NCBI GenBank assembly: GCA_964016885.1
Contig: OZ024740.1
Coordinates: forward strand, 412,114,001-412,178,000
Direction: 5' to 3'
DNA from: Eledone cirrhosa
Taxonomy: Eukaryota
Length of the DNA: 64,000 nt
A program made the translations under genes and the position numbers. Below, in pieces: positions 1,539 to 59,556 of this stretch (the first letter of the stretch is position 1; each line of letters starts with the position of its first letter). Below the pieces are notes generated by a model, which worked only from the letters and a program-made list of their open reading frames with translations, ran no database searches and had not been told where the DNA came from.

Positions 1539-1729
1539 TAATTTGTGACTGATCAAACAAGACCTTTTTCCATAAAAACACAATCACGTTTCTTCCTTTT
1601 CTCACCCTCCTCTAATTCTCTAATTTTTTTTCTCATTCTCTTTTCTGATGAAGGACTAGGGTTAAACCAATATATAACTTCATTGAATTGAATTATTTAC
1701 ATTATTGTTTACCGTTTTCTTTTCTTTCA

Positions 1730-1808
1730 TAATTTCGCTGATGAAGTTTCCTGGGAAATGGATTGAAATTTTGAAACTGAAATACATGTTAGACATATTT
1801 GAAATTAC
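1730..1808 (+). ncRNA. Hammerhead-like motif
   Basis: CTGATGA (1738-1744), helix II AGTTTC/GAAACT, GAAA (1779-1782), near-palindromic TACATG, then TT. Helix I forms only distally (TAATTTCG/TGAAATTA). Confidence 0.55.
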
Positions 1809-14586: not shown

Positions 14587-16499
14587 ATGGCCTGGGCCAT
14601 TGAGAAGATCAAACTCAATCCCAAAGTGTTCTTTTCATTTGCAAAAAAACACAAAATCACTGGCTCTACTGTTGGCCCTCTAATTGATGAAAATGGCACT
14701 CTTCAAGACAATGCTAAAACCATGGGTGAGATACTGCAGAAACAATACTGCTCTGTTTTCAGCAATCCTGATATGGCCGATCTGGGCTGTATCGGCGATG
14801 TTACTCCCCATTACACCTTATCGGACATAACGTTTGGCGCCCCTGATGTCTTGGCGGCAATAAAGGAAATCAAGCATAATTCAGCAGTAGGTCCCGATAG
14901 GTTCCCTGCTTGTGTCTTGAAGGCGTGTCAACACCAACTTGCTTCTCCTCTTGCCAATCTGTGGCGGAACTCACTGGATGCTGGATATGTGCCAGAAAAC
15001 CTTCTATCCCAGTCTGTTGTCCCAGTTTTCAAAAAGGGAAACAAATCCCTTGCCGTGAATTACCGTCCAATCTCACTCACCTCTCATATCATTAAGGTAT
15101 TTGAGCGAGTGGTGAGATCGCGAATGACCCACTTCCTTGAGAGTAACAATATGCTGAACTCCAACCAGCATGGATTCCGTAATGGAAGGGATTGCCTGAC
15201 GCAACTACTGCATCACTTTGATGACATTTTGAGAGCCTTGGGAGAGGGTTCCAACACTGATGTTATCTACCTTGATTTCAGCAAGGCCTTTGACAGGGTT
15301 GATCATAACATTCTACTGAGAAAGCTGTCCAATATTGGTGTCACTGGAAAGCTGCTGCAGTGGATCAAGAGCTTCCTGTCAAACAGAACCCAACATGTTG
15401 TAGTTGAGGGAGTCAAATCAAGCCCAGCCAAAGTCAGTAGTGGAGTCCCACAAGGCACTGTGTTGGGCCCACTTCTCTTCATCATCTATATTAATGACAT
15501 CACTGACATCATCAAACACAGCAACATTAAAATTTTCGCTGATGATTCCAAGCTCCAAAAGGTCATCAATGGCGTGGATAAGCCTTCAGTCAGACCTACT
15601 GGCTGTTACCCAATGGGCAGAAAAGAACAACATGTTACTGAACGAAGACAAATTCGAACTGATCCACTTTGGAAAAGAGGATGCTCTGAAACTCCCGTAC
15701 TCCCTTCCCTCCGGGGAAACTCTCGTGGCATCTAACAACATCAGAGACTTGGGAGTAACTGTGGACAGCAACATAAGCTGGACCACGCATATAAGCAGCA
15801 AAGTTGACATGGCCCGCAGAATGTGTTCCTGGATCCTCAGAACCTTCCAGTCGAGAGATTCCCGCACCATTATCCTTCTCTTCTCTACTTTCGCCCGACC
15901 ACACCTTGAATACTGTTGTCCACTGTGGTCTCCCCACACGAAACAAAGTATCATGAAACTTGAAGCTCCTCAAAGGGCAATCACGAAAAAGATAGATGGC
16001 ATGTCAGACCTTGACTACTGGGGTCGATTGGAAAACCTGAAACTTTACTCACTCCAACGTCGCCGTGAGCGTTATATTATCTGCATGATGTGGAAAATGT
16101 TCCATCATCACTGCCCAAATGATGTTGGCATCGCCTTCAAGATACACCCAAGGCTTGGGCCCCGTGCTATCCGTCCCATTCAAAAATCTAAATCGCAACT
16201 CATAACAACAATACGGCACAATTATTTCACCTCAATCGGCCCTGCTCTCTTCAACATCACACCAGGACACGTCAAAACAGAAACTGACCACACAAAATTC
16301 AAGAAGTCTTTGGACAAATTCCTCCAAGTAATCCCGGACAAACCACCCACACCCGGATATGTCTCCGCAAACAGTAATTCTCTTCTCGAATGGGCCATGG
16401 TGCCCAAATCCTGAATTGAAAGACTTCGCCAGGTGGTGCTATTAAGTTAGACATGGCCTGGGCCAATACTGGCCAAAACATTTCAAAGTTATTCAAAGT

Positions 16500-16500: not shown

Positions 16501-17691
<1,191 letters not shown>

Positions 17692-17826
17692 GTGAACGTT
17701 TTTTTTTTTACAAAATGAAAAATAACCGAGGTGTCCTACACGAGTGAAAGTATAAAGAAAAAGAGATGAAATCGAAAATGCAACTGGAGTCTTATTTTTT
17801 TTAAAAATATATATATATATTTGGTT

Positions 17827-17864
17827 CCTTTACCGGTTTCGCAGTTCTTCTGCTTTTCAAAAGG
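17827..17864 (-). ncRNA. Minimal type I hammerhead with U3-A8 variant core
   Basis: Minus strand: CCUU-UUGAAAA-GCAG-aagaa-CUGC-GAAA-CCGG-UA-AAGG. Helices I and II are perfect; helix III is palindromic. Confidence 0.7.
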
Positions 17865-17997
17865 TGAGTTTTTCTCACATATATACATATATAAATACAT
17901 ATATATTATAGAATACAGTTGGCTTTTTGCTACAATGTTTTCTATACCTTTCATTTATATATATACATATATATATATATATATACATATATGGATA

Positions 17998-23401: not shown

Positions 23402-23472
23402 TATTTTATTATGCGCATTTCAAAAACAAACATCATCAAGCAATAATATTTGTGTTTTCATCAGATAAAACA
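23402..23472 (-). ncRNA. Type I hammerhead ribozyme motif (mirror copy)
   Basis: Reverse complement of 23599-23669. Confidence 0.8.
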
Positions 23473-23598
23473 GGAGAACATGATATGAAGGCTAAAAAAC
23501 ACTTGTGGATAGTGCAGTTTTAAATCAACATATCAACATATGTTGATTTAAAACTACACTATCCACAAGTGTTTTTTAGCCTTCATATCATGTTCTCC

Positions 23599-23669
23599 TG
23601 TTTTATCTGATGAAAACACAAATATTATTGCTTGATGATGTTTGTTTTTGAAATGCGCATAATAAAATA
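23599..23669 (+). ncRNA. Type I hammerhead ribozyme motif
   Basis: UGUUUUAU-CUGAUGA-[16-bp helix II, 1 mismatch, GCUU loop]-GAAA-UGCGCA-UA-AUAAAAUA. Predicted cleavage after AUA at 23661. Confidence 0.8.
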
Positions 23670-25383: not shown

Positions 25384-26581
25384 GGGTGCAGGTAGATTTA
25401 AAAATTAAAAATTAAAAATGTGTTGAAGTGGTAGAATACTAATCCAAACCAAATCATGAGTTATAATATTATATATATAATGTATATAATGAGATTTTAT
25501 GTGGAATTAAGTTGTAAGTACACTTTAGCGTATTATATTACAACCAGTCAATTATATACATATTTATTTAAATCGATAAAAATATAAATATCATTGGTGT
25601 TTATACATGCTGTTATTAATTAAATATAATTTAAGGGTTACGAAGGATATTGTGTTTACATTTTCAATATATAGTTAAGAAAAAGACGTAGTTCGAATTT
25701 TATTATAGAAGAATTTTTTGTACTTTCAAATAGTTCAATAAAGATAGAAAACATTAAGTTAACGAAAATTATAGAGACTTTAGTATTTATGTTGTTAAAA
25801 AGAGTGGATGCTTTATGCGTGCTAGATTATACAGAAAAAGGAAAAAGAAAAGGAAAAGCTAACTCTAATGTTTATTAGTTACACTATTTATGTTAGATTT
25901 GTCACTTATTTTAGAATTTACTTAAAATTTATGTGGAGAAAATTTTATATATTATTTTATGTATGATTATAGGGTATTTTATATTACATGTTTTCAAAGA
26001 TGAGAATTTCTTTTATCTATATAGATATTATCTATATAGTCAATGAGTGTATTTAGAAAACTATCACGAAAAAGGATATATTTCAAAATATCAATTAAGA
26101 AATATCAATTAAAAAAAAAAAAAAATATCAATTAAGAAACCTAAGAAGAATATCAATTTGAAAAGAATATCATTTGTAAAAATAATTTGTAAAAATATTA
26201 CATAGAAAGAAAAATATATTTAAAAATCACAACTAAACCTTGACAGAAGAATAGTGCAGACATATAGAATGAGAATAAGTGAATTATAGACTATAGATTA
26301 TAAATACTTCGGAAAGTCATTTTTTGGCGATGTCTGCAGGAACTGAATATTTCTTTTTTTACTTTTTCACAATCTATATGTCTTTTATAAAGTATCCAAA
26401 TAATTATTTAAATTTACCTAGCGTCTAAATATAACGATTTTTTCAGTCTACGCTTCTACTTCATTTGCATATTTATCCTAAAGATTTGAAATTTTTCTGT
26501 TTTTCTTTCACTATCCAAATAGAACCCGAACCGATAAGGTCTGGTTTATCGGGTATGTCACTATTTATAAAACACATTTTG

Positions 26582-26645
26582 TATTTTATCTGATGAGAGC
26601 CTACATAAGTATTTTTGGTACCCTTGAAATATATATAATAAAATA
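26582..26645 (+). ncRNA. Type I hammerhead motif
   Basis: UAUUUUAU-CUGAUGA-GAG..CUU-GAAA-UAUAUA-UA-AUAAAAUA. Helix I is a perfect 8 bp; helix II is imperfect. Confidence 0.7.
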
Positions 26646-38179: not shown

Positions 38180-38260
<81 letters not shown>

Positions 38261-38267
<7 letters not shown>

Positions 38268-38657
38268 AAAAAGGAAAAGAAAATGCTGACAAACGTTCCC
38301 AGTGAAAAATAGTTTAATTAGGAAGAAGTATAAATTAGTAATAAGTATTGGTTAGTATTCAGTTTTAGTTTTAAGTTTTTTACCGGTTGCGCATTTCTAA
38401 TGCTTTTCAAAAATAAATTTTGGATAGAGCGCTCGTGATGTTTGCTCTAATCTGAGCAAAGAAATTAGAGCAAACATCTCGAGCGCTCTATTTCAAAATT
38501 ATTTTTGAAAAGCATTAGAAATGCGCAAACTGTAAATACTTAAAACTAAAACTGAATACTAACCAATACTTATTACTAATTTATACTTATTCCTAATTAA
38601 ACTATTTTTCACTGGGAACAATTTGTCACCATTTTCTTTTCCTTTTTACAAATATAT
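38261..38657. repeat. Palindrome with ~190-bp arms and ~11-bp spacer next to (TA)n; degenerate U3-A8 hammerhead in arms
   Basis: Minus strand 38376-38413: TTT-TTGAAAA-GCATT-aga-AATGC-GCAA-CCGG-TA-AAAAA. Confidence 0.88.
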
Positions 38658-38743
38658 CACAACTCGTGTGTCACACCTCTATTTTTTTTAAATATAATTA
38701 TACATATATACATATACATATATATATATATACATACATATAC

Positions 38744-52179: not shown

Positions 52180-53620
52180 CATCGTAGTATAAGTATACGT
52201 GTTTCCATGTGTCCCCGTCACTCCAACGGTTTAGGGTAGGCACCTGCTTATTAATAAAACATGACACCGCTATTCTTAGGTCGATCGTAACTATTGGCTC
52301 CGCCAATATTTTTGTGGTTATTCTTCTTCCACATATTTCTTTGTGTTGGAACACTGCACTTGGAGGCGTCAATGTTACAAAATGTTTGAGTATTCTGTTA
52401 TGCATTTCGCGTTCCTTGGAACCAATTTATTATGCTCCGCACGCGTATTTTCAAACTAAAGAGTCTCTCAGGCATTTTTGTATTATTGTTGTTAATTCCT
52501 GTGGTAATGTATTCAGCAGGCCTCTCCATTGATGCTCTGCGTGAACTGTTGACTCAACATCCTTCCACACTTTGTTACTCGAACTGGAAGGCCTAATTTC
52601 TAATACAGTTTTTAAGACGATTGTCTCTCTATTCTCTTTTGCAAGACAGATCAATACAGACCCATCATTTATCTTTATTTAGTTTCTTTCTCATGTTCTG
52701 TCTTCTTGTTGGTGTTGTTGTTGGTCTACTAGTGTTTGTAGTTGCTATTAGGACTAGAGTTGTGTTTCGTTTTGGTGTGTGGTGTTTGTGACTGTGTTTG
52801 TCTTTGTGTTCTCTTATGCTCTCGACAACGGTTCTTAGAATACTTTCTACGTAGCCTCTCTTTAACAGTAGTTTCCTCTGTTTAAGCGGGGGGTATACAT
52901 CCCTACCTGGCCACATGGTGTTTTCTGTTTTGTGGATATGAGGAATCTCTGTGGTGAAAGACATCTTTGTTGGCTTCGTTCTCATAGAATCTGATTTTCT
53001 CCTTTCCTGAAGTTTTAGATATGTTAATTCCAGCAAACGTATGTAACTATCGGCTGTAGGGAGTTCGATGTCGAACTTGATGGTGTCGTAGAGCTCATTA
53101 AGTATCTTATATATTTCCTTCGCCTCCTCCCTGAAATGAGTTAGCATTATTGCGTCAGCTACGTATCACCGGTACAATGTGACCTATCGGTCGGAGTACA
53201 TTGCTCTTTTTCCCAGGCTTTCCATTGTTAAGCTTGCCAGGGTTTCGCTGTGTCGGAATCTCTTCGGATGGCCACAGACTTGCTTGTATCTTCTACTGTC
53301 ATACATAAAGAATGTGTTCGTTGTAGAGAATTCAAGGAGCGAATTGAGGCCTGTTAATGAAAAGTCTGCTGAGAGGCTCTGTCCAACCTCTAGGCACTTT
53401 TGAACTGAGCGTATGGCCTCAGCTGGTGTTATGCTGGTTTATATGGAGCATATTCAAGGATGCATACATATTTGTTATTTTCTATTCTCTTATTGGGGAT
53501 TTTGTGAAGGAGTTCTATCAGCTACCAGCTGTTTTGGGGTTTTGCTGGTATGTGTACAACTAGTGGTTTTAGTAGCCATGGCAGGATCTATTCTATTTTC
53601 CGGAGAGGGTATCTAGGGCA
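52180..53620 (-). pseudogene. Decayed Penelope-like element (RT C-terminus plus GIY-YIG)
   Basis: LYR*YVADA (~YxRYVDD), LNELYDTIKFDIELP, TKPTK and LRIAVSCFINKQVPTLNR (GIY-YIG tail). Degenerate CTGATGA-ATGGCCAT-AAAC just downstream (~52114-52132). Confidence 0.65.
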
Positions 53621-57383: not shown

Positions 57384-57709
57384 AGATTTGAATGGATACA
57401 GTTTAGTTGAAAGGAATTTATTGACACGTGTTTCTATAACAGTTACATAACCTGAAAACAGCTGCTATCTACAAAGTTTTAGTTATGCAGACATTCAATA
57501 TTTCAATGTTATTATTTACTGTCATTTCATCAGAATAATATTACTGAGGACCTATTTGGTTTTTATAGAGAATATTAGGAGGGAGGGGTGAAGTTGTTAG
57601 AAGAATAGTTGAGGGAGTGGTTTTTTGATAGCAGTGAGAATGTTTGGTGGCAGTGAGTAATTAGATTCCCATCTGTTGTTTTGACATTTTTATAGAATAT
57701 ATTATTGGT

Positions 57710-58920
57710 TTTAGCTAATTGGGTTTTAGCTAATTTCTCCCATTTTAGGGTAAACTTTTGATCGCTATCCCTGAGTGTCCAAGCTTTTTCTGCTAAAGTT
57801 GTTACATTTCTTTGGCTCTGGTGTTTTATTGAGTAAGAATGCCTATATAATCGAGATTTAAACGATGTTGCCGTTGATCCCACGTAATACCACTCGTTGC
57901 CTCCGGATTTAATGGTACACTTATAAATAATATTTTTTTCCAGGCAGTTATTGCCGAGGGGGCAGTTGTCAGGATAGGTGCAGTTACAGTTGTGTATGTT
58001 GGGTTTTCTCTGGAGTAGTATTGCGGACGAACTTAGGTGTGGTTTATTTATGTTCTGTAGTGTATTGTCTACTGTTTTTTTGGTGTTCTTTGTACTTAAG
58101 TTCTTAGTGTTTTCGTTTAACCTTCTAGTATTGATCTTTTTTATGTGTTGTTCAAGGTTTAACGCTGTAGAGTATGACAGTCTTATAGTGGTAGGGTTTA
58201 GGATTTTGTGGTATTTGTGTGATGTAGGAAAATGTCTCTTAATTATTTTAAAGAAGAGTACTGGTAAATGTGTACTAATGGAACTATTGTATTCGGGGTT
58301 ATACCATAAGTACTCTTTGCATCGCTTTCTATTAGTTTTGTTAGCTGGTTTACTGGTGTGCATACTATGGTAGTAAGTGTGGTTTGGTGTTGTGTTATTA
58401 TATCTACCTATGTGGGATTTATTTTGGGTGTTTTGATTGTTCCCATCTATATACTCTATTTTTTTGAGGTAGCCTGCTTTACTAAGGGCGTTATCGTAGT
58501 ACTCGGCGTGTTCCTTAAATACTTGTATGCTAGAAGATAGACCCGAGATTCTAAGGGAAATATTTTTAGGGATATATTTAATTATAGAGATGGGGTGGTT
58601 AGACCCAACATTTACGTATTTGAGATTTTCATTCAATTTATGAAACGGTTTAATCAAACCAGAGTTTAAATTGAGTGTGACCTCCAGGAAGTTAACTACT
58701 TTAAGGTTGTATTCATATGTTATAGTTAGTCCTATTTCGAGTAGTAGTTTTCTTATATCTTTGCGTAGTTTTTCTAGTTTTTGGTCATTTAGGTTTTTAA
58801 CTAGGAGGAGAACATCGTCGCGGTATATTCCGCCGTGGAGATTGCTGAATTTTTCCTGGAGTCTAAAGGCGATAAATAACCCCACAATATCAGTTATATC
58901 CGCCGTACTGTTATTCCGCC
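57710..58920 (-). pseudogene. Truncated PLE RT + GIY-YIG reading frame, uninterrupted
   Basis: GGIYRDDVLL, NFLEVTL, SNHP, WYNPEY, CNCxxxxxCPLxxxC, IIYKC..YYVGST..FKSRLYRH. Both ends of ORF 57575-59092 are chimeric. Confidence 0.88.
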
Positions 58921-58932
58921 GTACTGTTATTC

Positions 58933-59556
58933 TGTCATACTCTACAGCGTTAAACCTTGAACAACACATAAAAAAGATCAATACTAGAAGGTTAAACGAA
59001 AACACTAAGAACCTAAGTACAAAGAACACAAAAAAAAACAGTAGACAATACACTACAGAACATAAATAAACCACACCTAAGTTCGTCCGCAATACTACTC
59101 CAGAGAAAACCCAACGTACACAACTGTAACTGCACCTATCCTGACAACTGCCCCCTCGGCAATAACTGCCTGGAAAAAAATATTATTTATAAGTGTACCA
59201 TTAAATCCGGAGGCAACGAGTGGTATTACGTGGGATCAACGGCAACATCGTTTAAATCTCGATTATATAGGCATTCTTACTCAATAAAACACCAGAGCCA
59301 AAGAAATGTAACAACTTTAGCAGAAAACGCTTGGACACTCAGGGATAGCGATCAAAAGTTTACCCTAAAATGGGAGAAATTAGCTAAAACCCAAAGCTTT
59401 TCCAGGAGCCAAAATTTCTGCAAATTGTGTAATCTTGAGATTTATTACATAATCACACACAAGAAGAAATTGCTGAATAACAGAATTGAACGAACATTAT
59501 TCTGCCGTCACAGAACTAAAACCCTTTTTTCCCACTACAAGCCGAATATTACATAA
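58933..59556 (+). pseudogene. Inverted PLE fragment encoding the GIY-YIG C-terminus to its natural stop
   Basis: YYVGSTATSFKSR...CKLCNLE...LLNNRIE...CRHR. Positions 58933-59393 are the reverse complement of 57720-58180. Confidence 0.88.

What the first reader, a model, noticed from the sequence alone, without database searches (positions are those of the whole stretch)
17827..17864. 38-nt minimal hammerhead with compensated U3-A8 core
The core UUGAAAA changes both C3 and G8. Established: positions 3 and 8 form a Watson-Crick tertiary pair and U3-A8 is tolerated. The same core recurs at 38376-38413 with a covarying helix II (GCAUU/AAUGC versus GCAG/CUGC) and the same CCGG-UA, so it is a family trait rather than decay. 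Standard CUGANGA searches would miss it.
Basis: partly seen in the sequence, partly recalled or inferred. Interest (0 to 1): 0.75.

Follow-up and report, generated by a model that had tools for sequence, protein, structure and literature searches.

The report
Known U3-A8 hammerhead in Penelope retroelement
This 38-base stretch is a real copy of the small hammerhead RNA motif, predicted to cut itself, that a very abundant jumping gene of this animal genome carries at its ends; its swapped U-A core pair is a published variant, so the find is ordinary, except that the sister family at the second site carries a further fixed core change and has still spread to thousands of copies.

Summary
The motif is real (minus strand, 17864-17827): a complete minimal type I hammerhead with U3-A8 and a palindromic ACCGGU helix III. 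It lies in a ~197-bp, 5'-truncated terminal repeat (pLTR) of an autonomous Neptune/Nematis-type Penelope-like element (PLE; RT plus GIY-YIG), between (TA)n tracts. Genome-wide the U3-A8 pattern has 20,541 matches (control 25); C3-G8 has 20 (control 9). U3-A8 is therefore the master state, not decay. It is also published: natural U3-A8 in 2011, about 1,300 U3-A8 minimal hammerheads in Schistosoma PLEs in 2014. This scan has reported it on other DNA before.

It belongs to a different PLE family (RT-EN 55% identical) and its core reads GCAA (A13C), not GAAA. A13C is fixed there: 99 of 100 listed exact copies, and 26 of 28 readable copies found through the protein, including copies with intact ORFs. 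I did not find A13C in print, but one key paper was not readable.

Likely mechanism: slow, dimer-dependent, probably protein-assisted cleavage in full-length transcripts; the window copy is probably inert. Cleavage is untested. New member of a known kind; interest 0.22.

The parts
17827..17864 (-). Minimal type I hammerhead motif, family A: U3-A8 core, 4-bp helix II, palindromic ACCGGU helix III, GUA triplet; predicted cut between 17831 and 17830
   Evidence: Sequence; identical over the 30-nt core to the motif in full-length copies such as L122
17685..17881 (-). 5'-truncated solo pLTR of family A (Neptune/Nematis-type PLE), with a ~20-nt deletion just upstream of helix I; 3' end abuts (TA)n
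   Evidence: 94% identity over 192 nt (17679-17870) to the pLTR of L122; ends read by eye
17400..17684 (.). (TA)n-type microsatellite at the 3' end of the insertion (it continues further left); likely the insertion target
   Evidence: the same junction is seen in most copies printed
38376..38413 (-). Minimal hammerhead motif of sister family B: U3-A8 plus A13C (GCAA), 5-bp helix II, helix I of only 3 A-U pairs
   Evidence: family state
38257..38455 (-). Family B pLTR fragment that carries site 2
   Evidence: blastn to L216, 80-82%
38464..38698 (+). Inverted partner copy of the family B pLTR; its hammerhead (about 38502-38545) also has C13 and a damaged helix III

Best explanation
The 38-mer is the hammerhead motif of the terminal repeat (pLTR) of an abundant autonomous Penelope-like retrotransposon with a U3-A8 core, and it likely works as in other PLEs: two copies on one transcript would pair through the palindromic ACCGGU and cut slowly after GUA, while this solo truncated copy is probably inert. 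SHOWN: full-length copies read hammerhead - about 170 nt - ORF1 (about 400 aa) - overlapping ORF2 (775 aa, RT plus GIY-YIG) - about 1 kb - hammerhead, with both motifs on the coding strand 4.7 kb apart. U3-A8 is the master state. The motif is far better conserved between families A and B than its flanks. INFERRED from published work: U3-A8 keeps the 3-8 Watson-Crick pair and activity; the monomer cannot form helix III; a dimer can; cleavage is slow and may need the element's protein; cleavage is probably not required for insertion. The window copy has no same-family partner in the window and is predicted to fold otherwise.
For: Element link: 24 of 30 loci found with the family A endonuclease have the motif on the same strand 0.93-1.41 kb downstream, none on the opposite strand. 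4 of 20 stretches fetched around long-ORF copies show hammerhead-ORF1-ORF2-hammerhead (L120, L122, L123, L129). ORF2 hits RVT_1 (E 4.9e-6, 26.8 bits, under the 29.6 cut-off) and GIY-YIG (E 3.7e-6, above cut-off); the L073 copy passes both cut-offs. It has the CxxxxCxxC linker. Core state; the single mutants, each about 0.7%, look like post-insertion transitions. Constraint: between A and B the motif is 26/31 identical (84%), the flanks 49-60%, shuffled flanks about 48%. Helix II differs with pairing kept in families A, B, C and D; C and D copies also lie downstream of PLE ORF fragments (L081, L303, L294). Dimer: closing A15.1-U16.1 in the monomer costs energy (+0.7 against -4.7 kcal/mol without it), the ACCGGU duplex gives -8.3. 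Literature: PMC4209133, PMC3088659, PMC11167929.
Against: No cleavage data, and no evidence on expression. Helix I is weak across the group: 4 or 3 bp in A, 3 A-U pairs in B, 2-3 bp in C and D. In native context the predicted fold keeps helix II but not helix I and pairs the GGU next to the cut site with downstream ACC. The cofold MFE of two 38-mers pairs the palindrome but is not the exact dimer hammerhead. Copies show no clear pile-up of 5' ends at the predicted cut: 9 of 30 truncated among 356 matches, against 5 of 30 among 300 at a control site 6 nt away. Sister family B amplified with A13C. Family H, 43% identical to A in ORF2, showed no family-wide hammerhead in 1.5 kb downstream of 20 endonuclease hits.
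Confidence: 0.8

Rival explanations
1. The fold is hammerhead-derived but is kept mainly as a non-catalytic signal (a binding or dimerisation site for the element's protein); cleavage is negligible in this PLE group.
For: A13C is fixed in an autonomous family with intact 784-aa ORFs, and its motif is still far better conserved than its flanks. Helix I is marginal. No 5'-end peak at the cut site. In the anole PLE, catalytic mutants did not affect insertion in vitro and no RNA-seq reads ended at the cut site (PMC11167929).
Against: Families A, C and D keep every catalytic core position plus an NUH triplet while helix II sequence changes, the pattern expected from selection for catalysis. A13 changes cost only 10-100-fold in minimal hammerheads according to PMC4075628 (citing earlier work), so B need not be dead.
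Confidence: 0.15
2. The window copy itself is functional, cutting a host or read-through transcript.
For: All core positions are intact.
Against: Solo and 5'-truncated; no second family A copy in the window; competing fold; no host-gene Pfam domain among 96 window ORFs scanned, only an RT and a weak transposase hit (short exons would be missed); one of about 20,000 similar motifs.
Confidence: 0.03
3. Chance resemblance, or decay of a canonical C3-G8 hammerhead.
For: The sequence is short and A-rich; the monomer fold z-score is only -0.94; no Rfam match.
Against: Shuffle expectation 0.03 per window; 20,541 against 20; fixed position in PLE pLTRs.
Confidence: 0.02

Closest known systems
Minimal hammerheads (min-HHR) of metazoan PLE pLTRs, including the U3-A8 variant of Schistosoma mansoni Cercyon elements (Cervera and De la Pena 2014, PMC4209133)
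   Same: Type I topology; short palindromic helix III; G10.1-C11.1; position in both pLTRs; solo and inverted-pair copies; U3-A8 core (about 1,300 hits in S. mansoni).
   Different: Here U3-A8 is the fixed state of several related families, with at least 20,541 exact-pattern copies; helix II is short (4-5 bp); families A, B and D lack the extra nucleotide between 9 and 10.1; family B adds A13C.
Natural U3-A8 hammerhead core variants (Perreault et al. 2011, PMC3088659)
   Same: The same covariation at the 3-8 pair, reported there as active in earlier in vitro work.
   Different: The core variants named in the section I read do not include A13C.
Neptune/Nematis-type EN+ PLEs (Craig et al. 2021, PMC8557442)
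   Same: RT followed by C-terminal GIY-YIG; CX2-5CxxC linker; (TA)n targets; 5' truncation, partial tandems and inverted upstream copies; two alternative 3' ends (tail); ORF1 separated by a frameshift is listed in the Fig. 1 legend.
   Different: Clade not fixed by a tree here. The tail is about 70 nt in A (read by eye), against the 30-40 bp described.
Poseidon PLE of Anolis (Frangieh et al. 2024, PMC11167929)
   Same: Hammerhead in the pLTR near the ORF start; AT-rich targets; internal RT starts that explain tails.
   Different: There the core is C3-G8 and the ORF starts inside stem II; here the AUG lies 198 nt after U3.

Membership tests
Minimal type I hammerhead of PLEs | Core positions 3-9 and 12-15.1 with a Watson-Crick 3-8 pair and an NUH triplet | tested here: met
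   Site 1: U3-A8, GAAA, GUA
Minimal type I hammerhead of PLEs | Helices I and II, with G10.1-C11.1 | tested here: met
   4 bp plus 4 bp at site 1; helix II covaries across families; helix I is weak in relatives
Minimal type I hammerhead of PLEs | Palindromic minimal helix III | tested here: met
   ACCGGU; duplex -8.3 kcal/mol
Minimal type I hammerhead of PLEs | Located in the pLTRs of a PLE, on the sense strand | tested here: met
   24 of 30 endonuclease-anchored loci; two-pLTR copies in 4 of 20 stretches
Minimal type I hammerhead of PLEs | Self-cleavage as a dimer | not testable with these tools
   The genomic proxy (5' ends at the cut site) was inconclusive
Minimal type I hammerhead of PLEs (site 2, family B) | Intact G12-A13-A14 | tested here: not met
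   C13 in the window copy and as the family state; filed as a core variant, not as a consensus member
EN+ Penelope-like element, Neptune/Nematis type | RT plus C-terminal GIY-YIG endonuclease | tested here: met
   Pfam RVT_1 and GIY-YIG in families A and B
EN+ Penelope-like element, Neptune/Nematis type | CX2-5CxxC linker upstream of GIY-YIG, and cysteines between GIY and YIG | tested here: met
   Read in the ORF2 translation; definition from PMC8557442
EN+ Penelope-like element, Neptune/Nematis type | pLTRs, inverted 5' copies, (TA)n targets | tested here: met
Neptune clade specifically | RT phylogeny with reference Neptune and Nematis proteins | not tested
   No reference proteins were on hand; the 'Neptune-like' label rests on domain order and linker
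Non-LTR retrozyme | Head-to-tail tandem monomers, each with a hammerhead, non-coding | tested here: not met
   The window copy is solo; the family has a coding master

The most novel reading that the evidence does not exclude
This genome holds a natural experiment on what PLE hammerheads are for. Sister autonomous families share a U3-A8/ACCGGU hammerhead, yet one fixed A13C in its catalytic core, kept the rest of the motif conserved and still amplified to thousands of copies with intact ORFs. Either U3-A8/C13/A17 is an undescribed active core, or PLE hammerheads are selected as non-cutting dimerisation or protein-binding folds.
Probability: 0.3. Interest if true: 0.5.

Novelty: new member of a known kind. 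Interest (0 to 1): 0.22.

Why it matters
The U3-A8 motif itself changes little: it adds a very large set (at least 20,541 pattern matches) to a published variant and shows that CUGANGA-only surveys undercount hammerheads in such genomes. The more useful part is the pair of sister families, A13 and C13. They give matched natural substrates for the open question of whether hammerhead cleavage matters to PLE retrotransposition.

Tried and rejected
Rfam, whole window (150 of 361 rows shown, almost all microsatellite-driven miRNA matches, none a hammerhead) and site 1 alone: no hammerhead match. The repeat finder was swamped by (TA)n. A MITE or foldback reading of the inverted repeat at site 2 was rejected: both arms are pLTR fragments of a coding PLE. 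The retrozyme reading was rejected (coding master). RNA runs: no RNA holder listed; this says nothing on expression. 5'-end test at the cut site: about 107 against about 50 estimated truncations, from 9 of 30 and 5 of 30 sampled; inconclusive. Search for a C3-G8 sister family with ACCGGU: the candidate (family G, 30 matches) has mostly A or G before UGA, probably an insertion between positions 3 and 4, so it does not test 3-8 covariation. The PLE fragments in the window at 57575-59556 are of another group (almost no similarity to A, B or H) and are not the source of site 1. Literature for A13C: 'hammerhead'+'A13C' gave 0 papers; 'hammerhead, A13, mutational, cleavage' gave 14, none on this variant by title; 'hammerhead'+'U3-A8' gave 1; 'Penelope, hammerhead, octopus' gave nothing specific. 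Lunse et al. 2017 (PLE hammerhead variants), Nelson and Uhlenbeck 2008, and Przybilski and Hammann 2007 are not held. The first, and parts 2-3 and the figure images of the Cervera supplement, may already list A13C. A search of this scan's findings by sequence gave nothing.

Full report
1. Observation. The window is AT-rich DNA full of (TA)n tracts, from a 3.0-Gb assembly that I take to be an animal's from its retroelements; I did not identify it. On the minus strand, 17864-17827 reads as a complete minimal type I hammerhead: 4-bp helix I, UUGAAAA (U3...A9, so U3 and A8), 4-bp helix II starting G10.1-C11.1, GAAA, palindromic CCGG, and UA. The predicted cut is between 17831 and 17830. A relaxed descriptor finds 2 such motifs in the window against 0.03 per shuffled window (30 shuffles). 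Site 2 (38413-38376) has U3-A8 and the same palindrome, and its helix II covaries with site 1, but it reads GCAA where the core needs GAAA, and helix I is three A-U pairs. An inverted, more damaged copy lies about 90 nt to its right.

2. Family state. With the same right half, C3-G8 has 20 (control 9), U3-G8 138 (control 22) and C3-A8 156 (control 14). The two single states, each about 0.7%, occur mostly in otherwise family-typical sequences, as expected from mutation after insertion (inference). So U3-A8 is inherited from the master elements. The same numbers mean that there is no sizeable C3-G8 sister family with this helix III, so 3-8 covariation is not demonstrated inside this group. Canonical C3-G8 minimal hammerheads exist in other repeats of the genome, with other palindromes.

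3. The carrier. Extending family A copies led to a coding element. Of 30 loci taken by similarity to its endonuclease, 24 have the motif on the same strand 0.93-1.41 kb after the ORF and none has it on the other strand; 6 showed none within the 1.5 kb held. Of 20 stretches fetched around long-ORF copies, 4 show hammerhead, ORF1 (about 400 aa from the first AUG), an overlapping 771-775-aa ORF2 and a second hammerhead 4.7 kb after the first. ORF2 has RVT_1 and GIY-YIG domains and a CxxxxCxxC linker, which Craig et al. give as the mark of Neptune and Nematis PLEs (PMC8557442; introduction and passages read, supplement searched). Copies end at one of two TA-containing points about 70 nt apart and run into (TA)n (by eye). 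Among 27 family A motifs from the unbiased list (inverted pairs counted twice), 13 have their 5' end 32-43 nt upstream of U3 and most have an inverted partner. The window copy (about 17685-17881) is such a short pLTR piece, 94% identical to the pLTR of L122, with a 20-nt deletion upstream of helix I.

4. Site 2 is a second family. Family B has its own ORF1 and a 784-aa RT-EN, 55% identical to A. An exact 30-mer that allows A or C at position 13 has 3,996 matches, and 99 of the 100 listed have C (one loop subfamily only). To avoid choosing on the motif, I took 30 loci by the B endonuclease: 1 had no anchor and 1 had a disrupted motif; of the 28 readable, 26 have C13 (24 counted by the script, 2 read by eye), 1 U, 1 G and none A. 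Of 8 stretches chosen for an intact 784-aa ORF, 7 have a downstream C13 motif, and L216 has it in both pLTRs. Contigs of three public runs laid on L217 list no other letter at that place, so it is not an assembly error; two runs carry other coded organism labels, one at low depth. Between A and B the motif is 84% identical, the flanks 49-60% (shuffled about 48%), so the fold has been under constraint in both lines. PMC4075628 (part 1 of 2 read) states, citing earlier work, that A13 mutations inhibit 10-100-fold.

5. How it likely works. Shown: architecture, core state, conservation. Inferred: a transcript through both pLTRs carries two motifs that pair through ACCGGU (duplex -8.3 kcal/mol; monomer closure unfavourable) and cut after GUA, about 170 nt before the ORF1 AUG. 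Cervera and De la Pena found no monomer cleavage and low dimer cleavage for a schistosome motif (PMC4209133; parts 1-2 of 4 and supplement part 1 of 3 read). Frangieh et al. found the anole PLE hammerhead protein-assisted and not needed for insertion in vitro (PMC11167929; parts 1-2 of 4). My genomic proxy agrees loosely with the latter: copies that begin at the cut site are rare and not clearly more common than at a control site (9 of 30 of 356 matches, against 5 of 30 of 300). Against efficient cleavage: weak helix I, and a predicted competing pairing beside the cut site, both in the window copy and in L122. The window copy has no same-family partner in the window and is most likely inert. 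Site 2 would be paired off by its inverted neighbour if transcribed (inference).

6. What is known. Perreault et al. report natural U3-A8 covariation and cite earlier proof of activity (PMC3088659; section 8 and passages read). Cervera and De la Pena report U3-A8 in Cercyon PLE minimal hammerheads, about 1,300 hits. A review summarises dimer cleavage through a palindromic stem III (PMC6765202; passages). I also saw part 1 of 5 of bioRxiv 10.64898/2026.07.22.740005 and one passage of PMC7151607; neither changed the reading. Lunse 2017, Nelson and Uhlenbeck 2008, and Przybilski and Hammann 2007 I saw only as reference-list titles. Earlier notes of this scan reach the same verdict on U3-A8 in other genomes; the word A13C occurred in none.

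7. Verdict. Site 1 is a new member of a known kind, probably an inert passenger. The family-fixed A13C of the second site is the only element that I could not find described, with the caveat of the unread Lunse paper and supplement figures. Interest 0.22.

Noticed in passing
window 38376-38413 and L133-L192, L213-L220: Autonomous sister PLE family B has a fixed A13C core change in at least about 3,950 exact copies of one subfamily, including intact-ORF copies.
   Followed up: yes
L122:5071-5158; L217 near 3650; L227 near 4720: Families A, B and H all have overlapping ORF1/ORF2 in the -1 frame with a U UUU UUA heptamer in the overlap: a likely programmed -1 frameshift. PMC8557442 Fig. 1 legend lists frameshifts with pseudoknots for PLEs; the slippery-site label is recalled.
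   Followed up: partly
L193-L212, L221-L228: Related PLE family H (796-aa ORF2, 41-43% identical to A and B) showed no family-wide standard hammerhead in 1.5 kb downstream of 20 endonuclease hits; its pLTR may lie further out or hold a rearranged motif.
   Followed up: partly
L309-L338: Old family G (30 matches) has ACCGGU and G8 but mostly A or G before UGA, possibly a one-base insertion between core positions 3 and 4.
   Followed up: partly
window 23402-23472 (-) and 23591-23669 (+): Inverted pair of C3-G8 hammerhead-like motifs with 8-bp helix I, long helix II and a palindromic helix III; the same repeat appears in L007.
   Followed up: no
window 26574-26645 (+) and 1722-1807 (+): Two further CUGAUGA...GAAA motifs with 8-bp helix I candidates; weaker, possibly decayed PLE hammerheads.
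   Followed up: no
window 57575-59556 and 52665-53165: PLE-like RT/GIY-YIG fragments of another group, the first in inverted arrangement; no Pfam support.
   Followed up: partly
window 14587-16414 (+): Frameshifted LINE-type RT fragment between (TA)n tracts (RVT_1 E 1.6e-27).
   Followed up: no
window 17861-17869 (+): The antisense of helix I and its flank reads AAG/GTGAGT, a consensus 5' splice donor (consensus recalled); any copy inserted antisense in an intron could act as a cryptic donor.
   Followed up: no
L031-L060: 5' ends of short copies cluster 32-43 nt upstream of U3 (13 of 27), at a short TGTG/CACA inverted repeat that may promote fold-back priming and the frequent inverted pairs.
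   Followed up: partly
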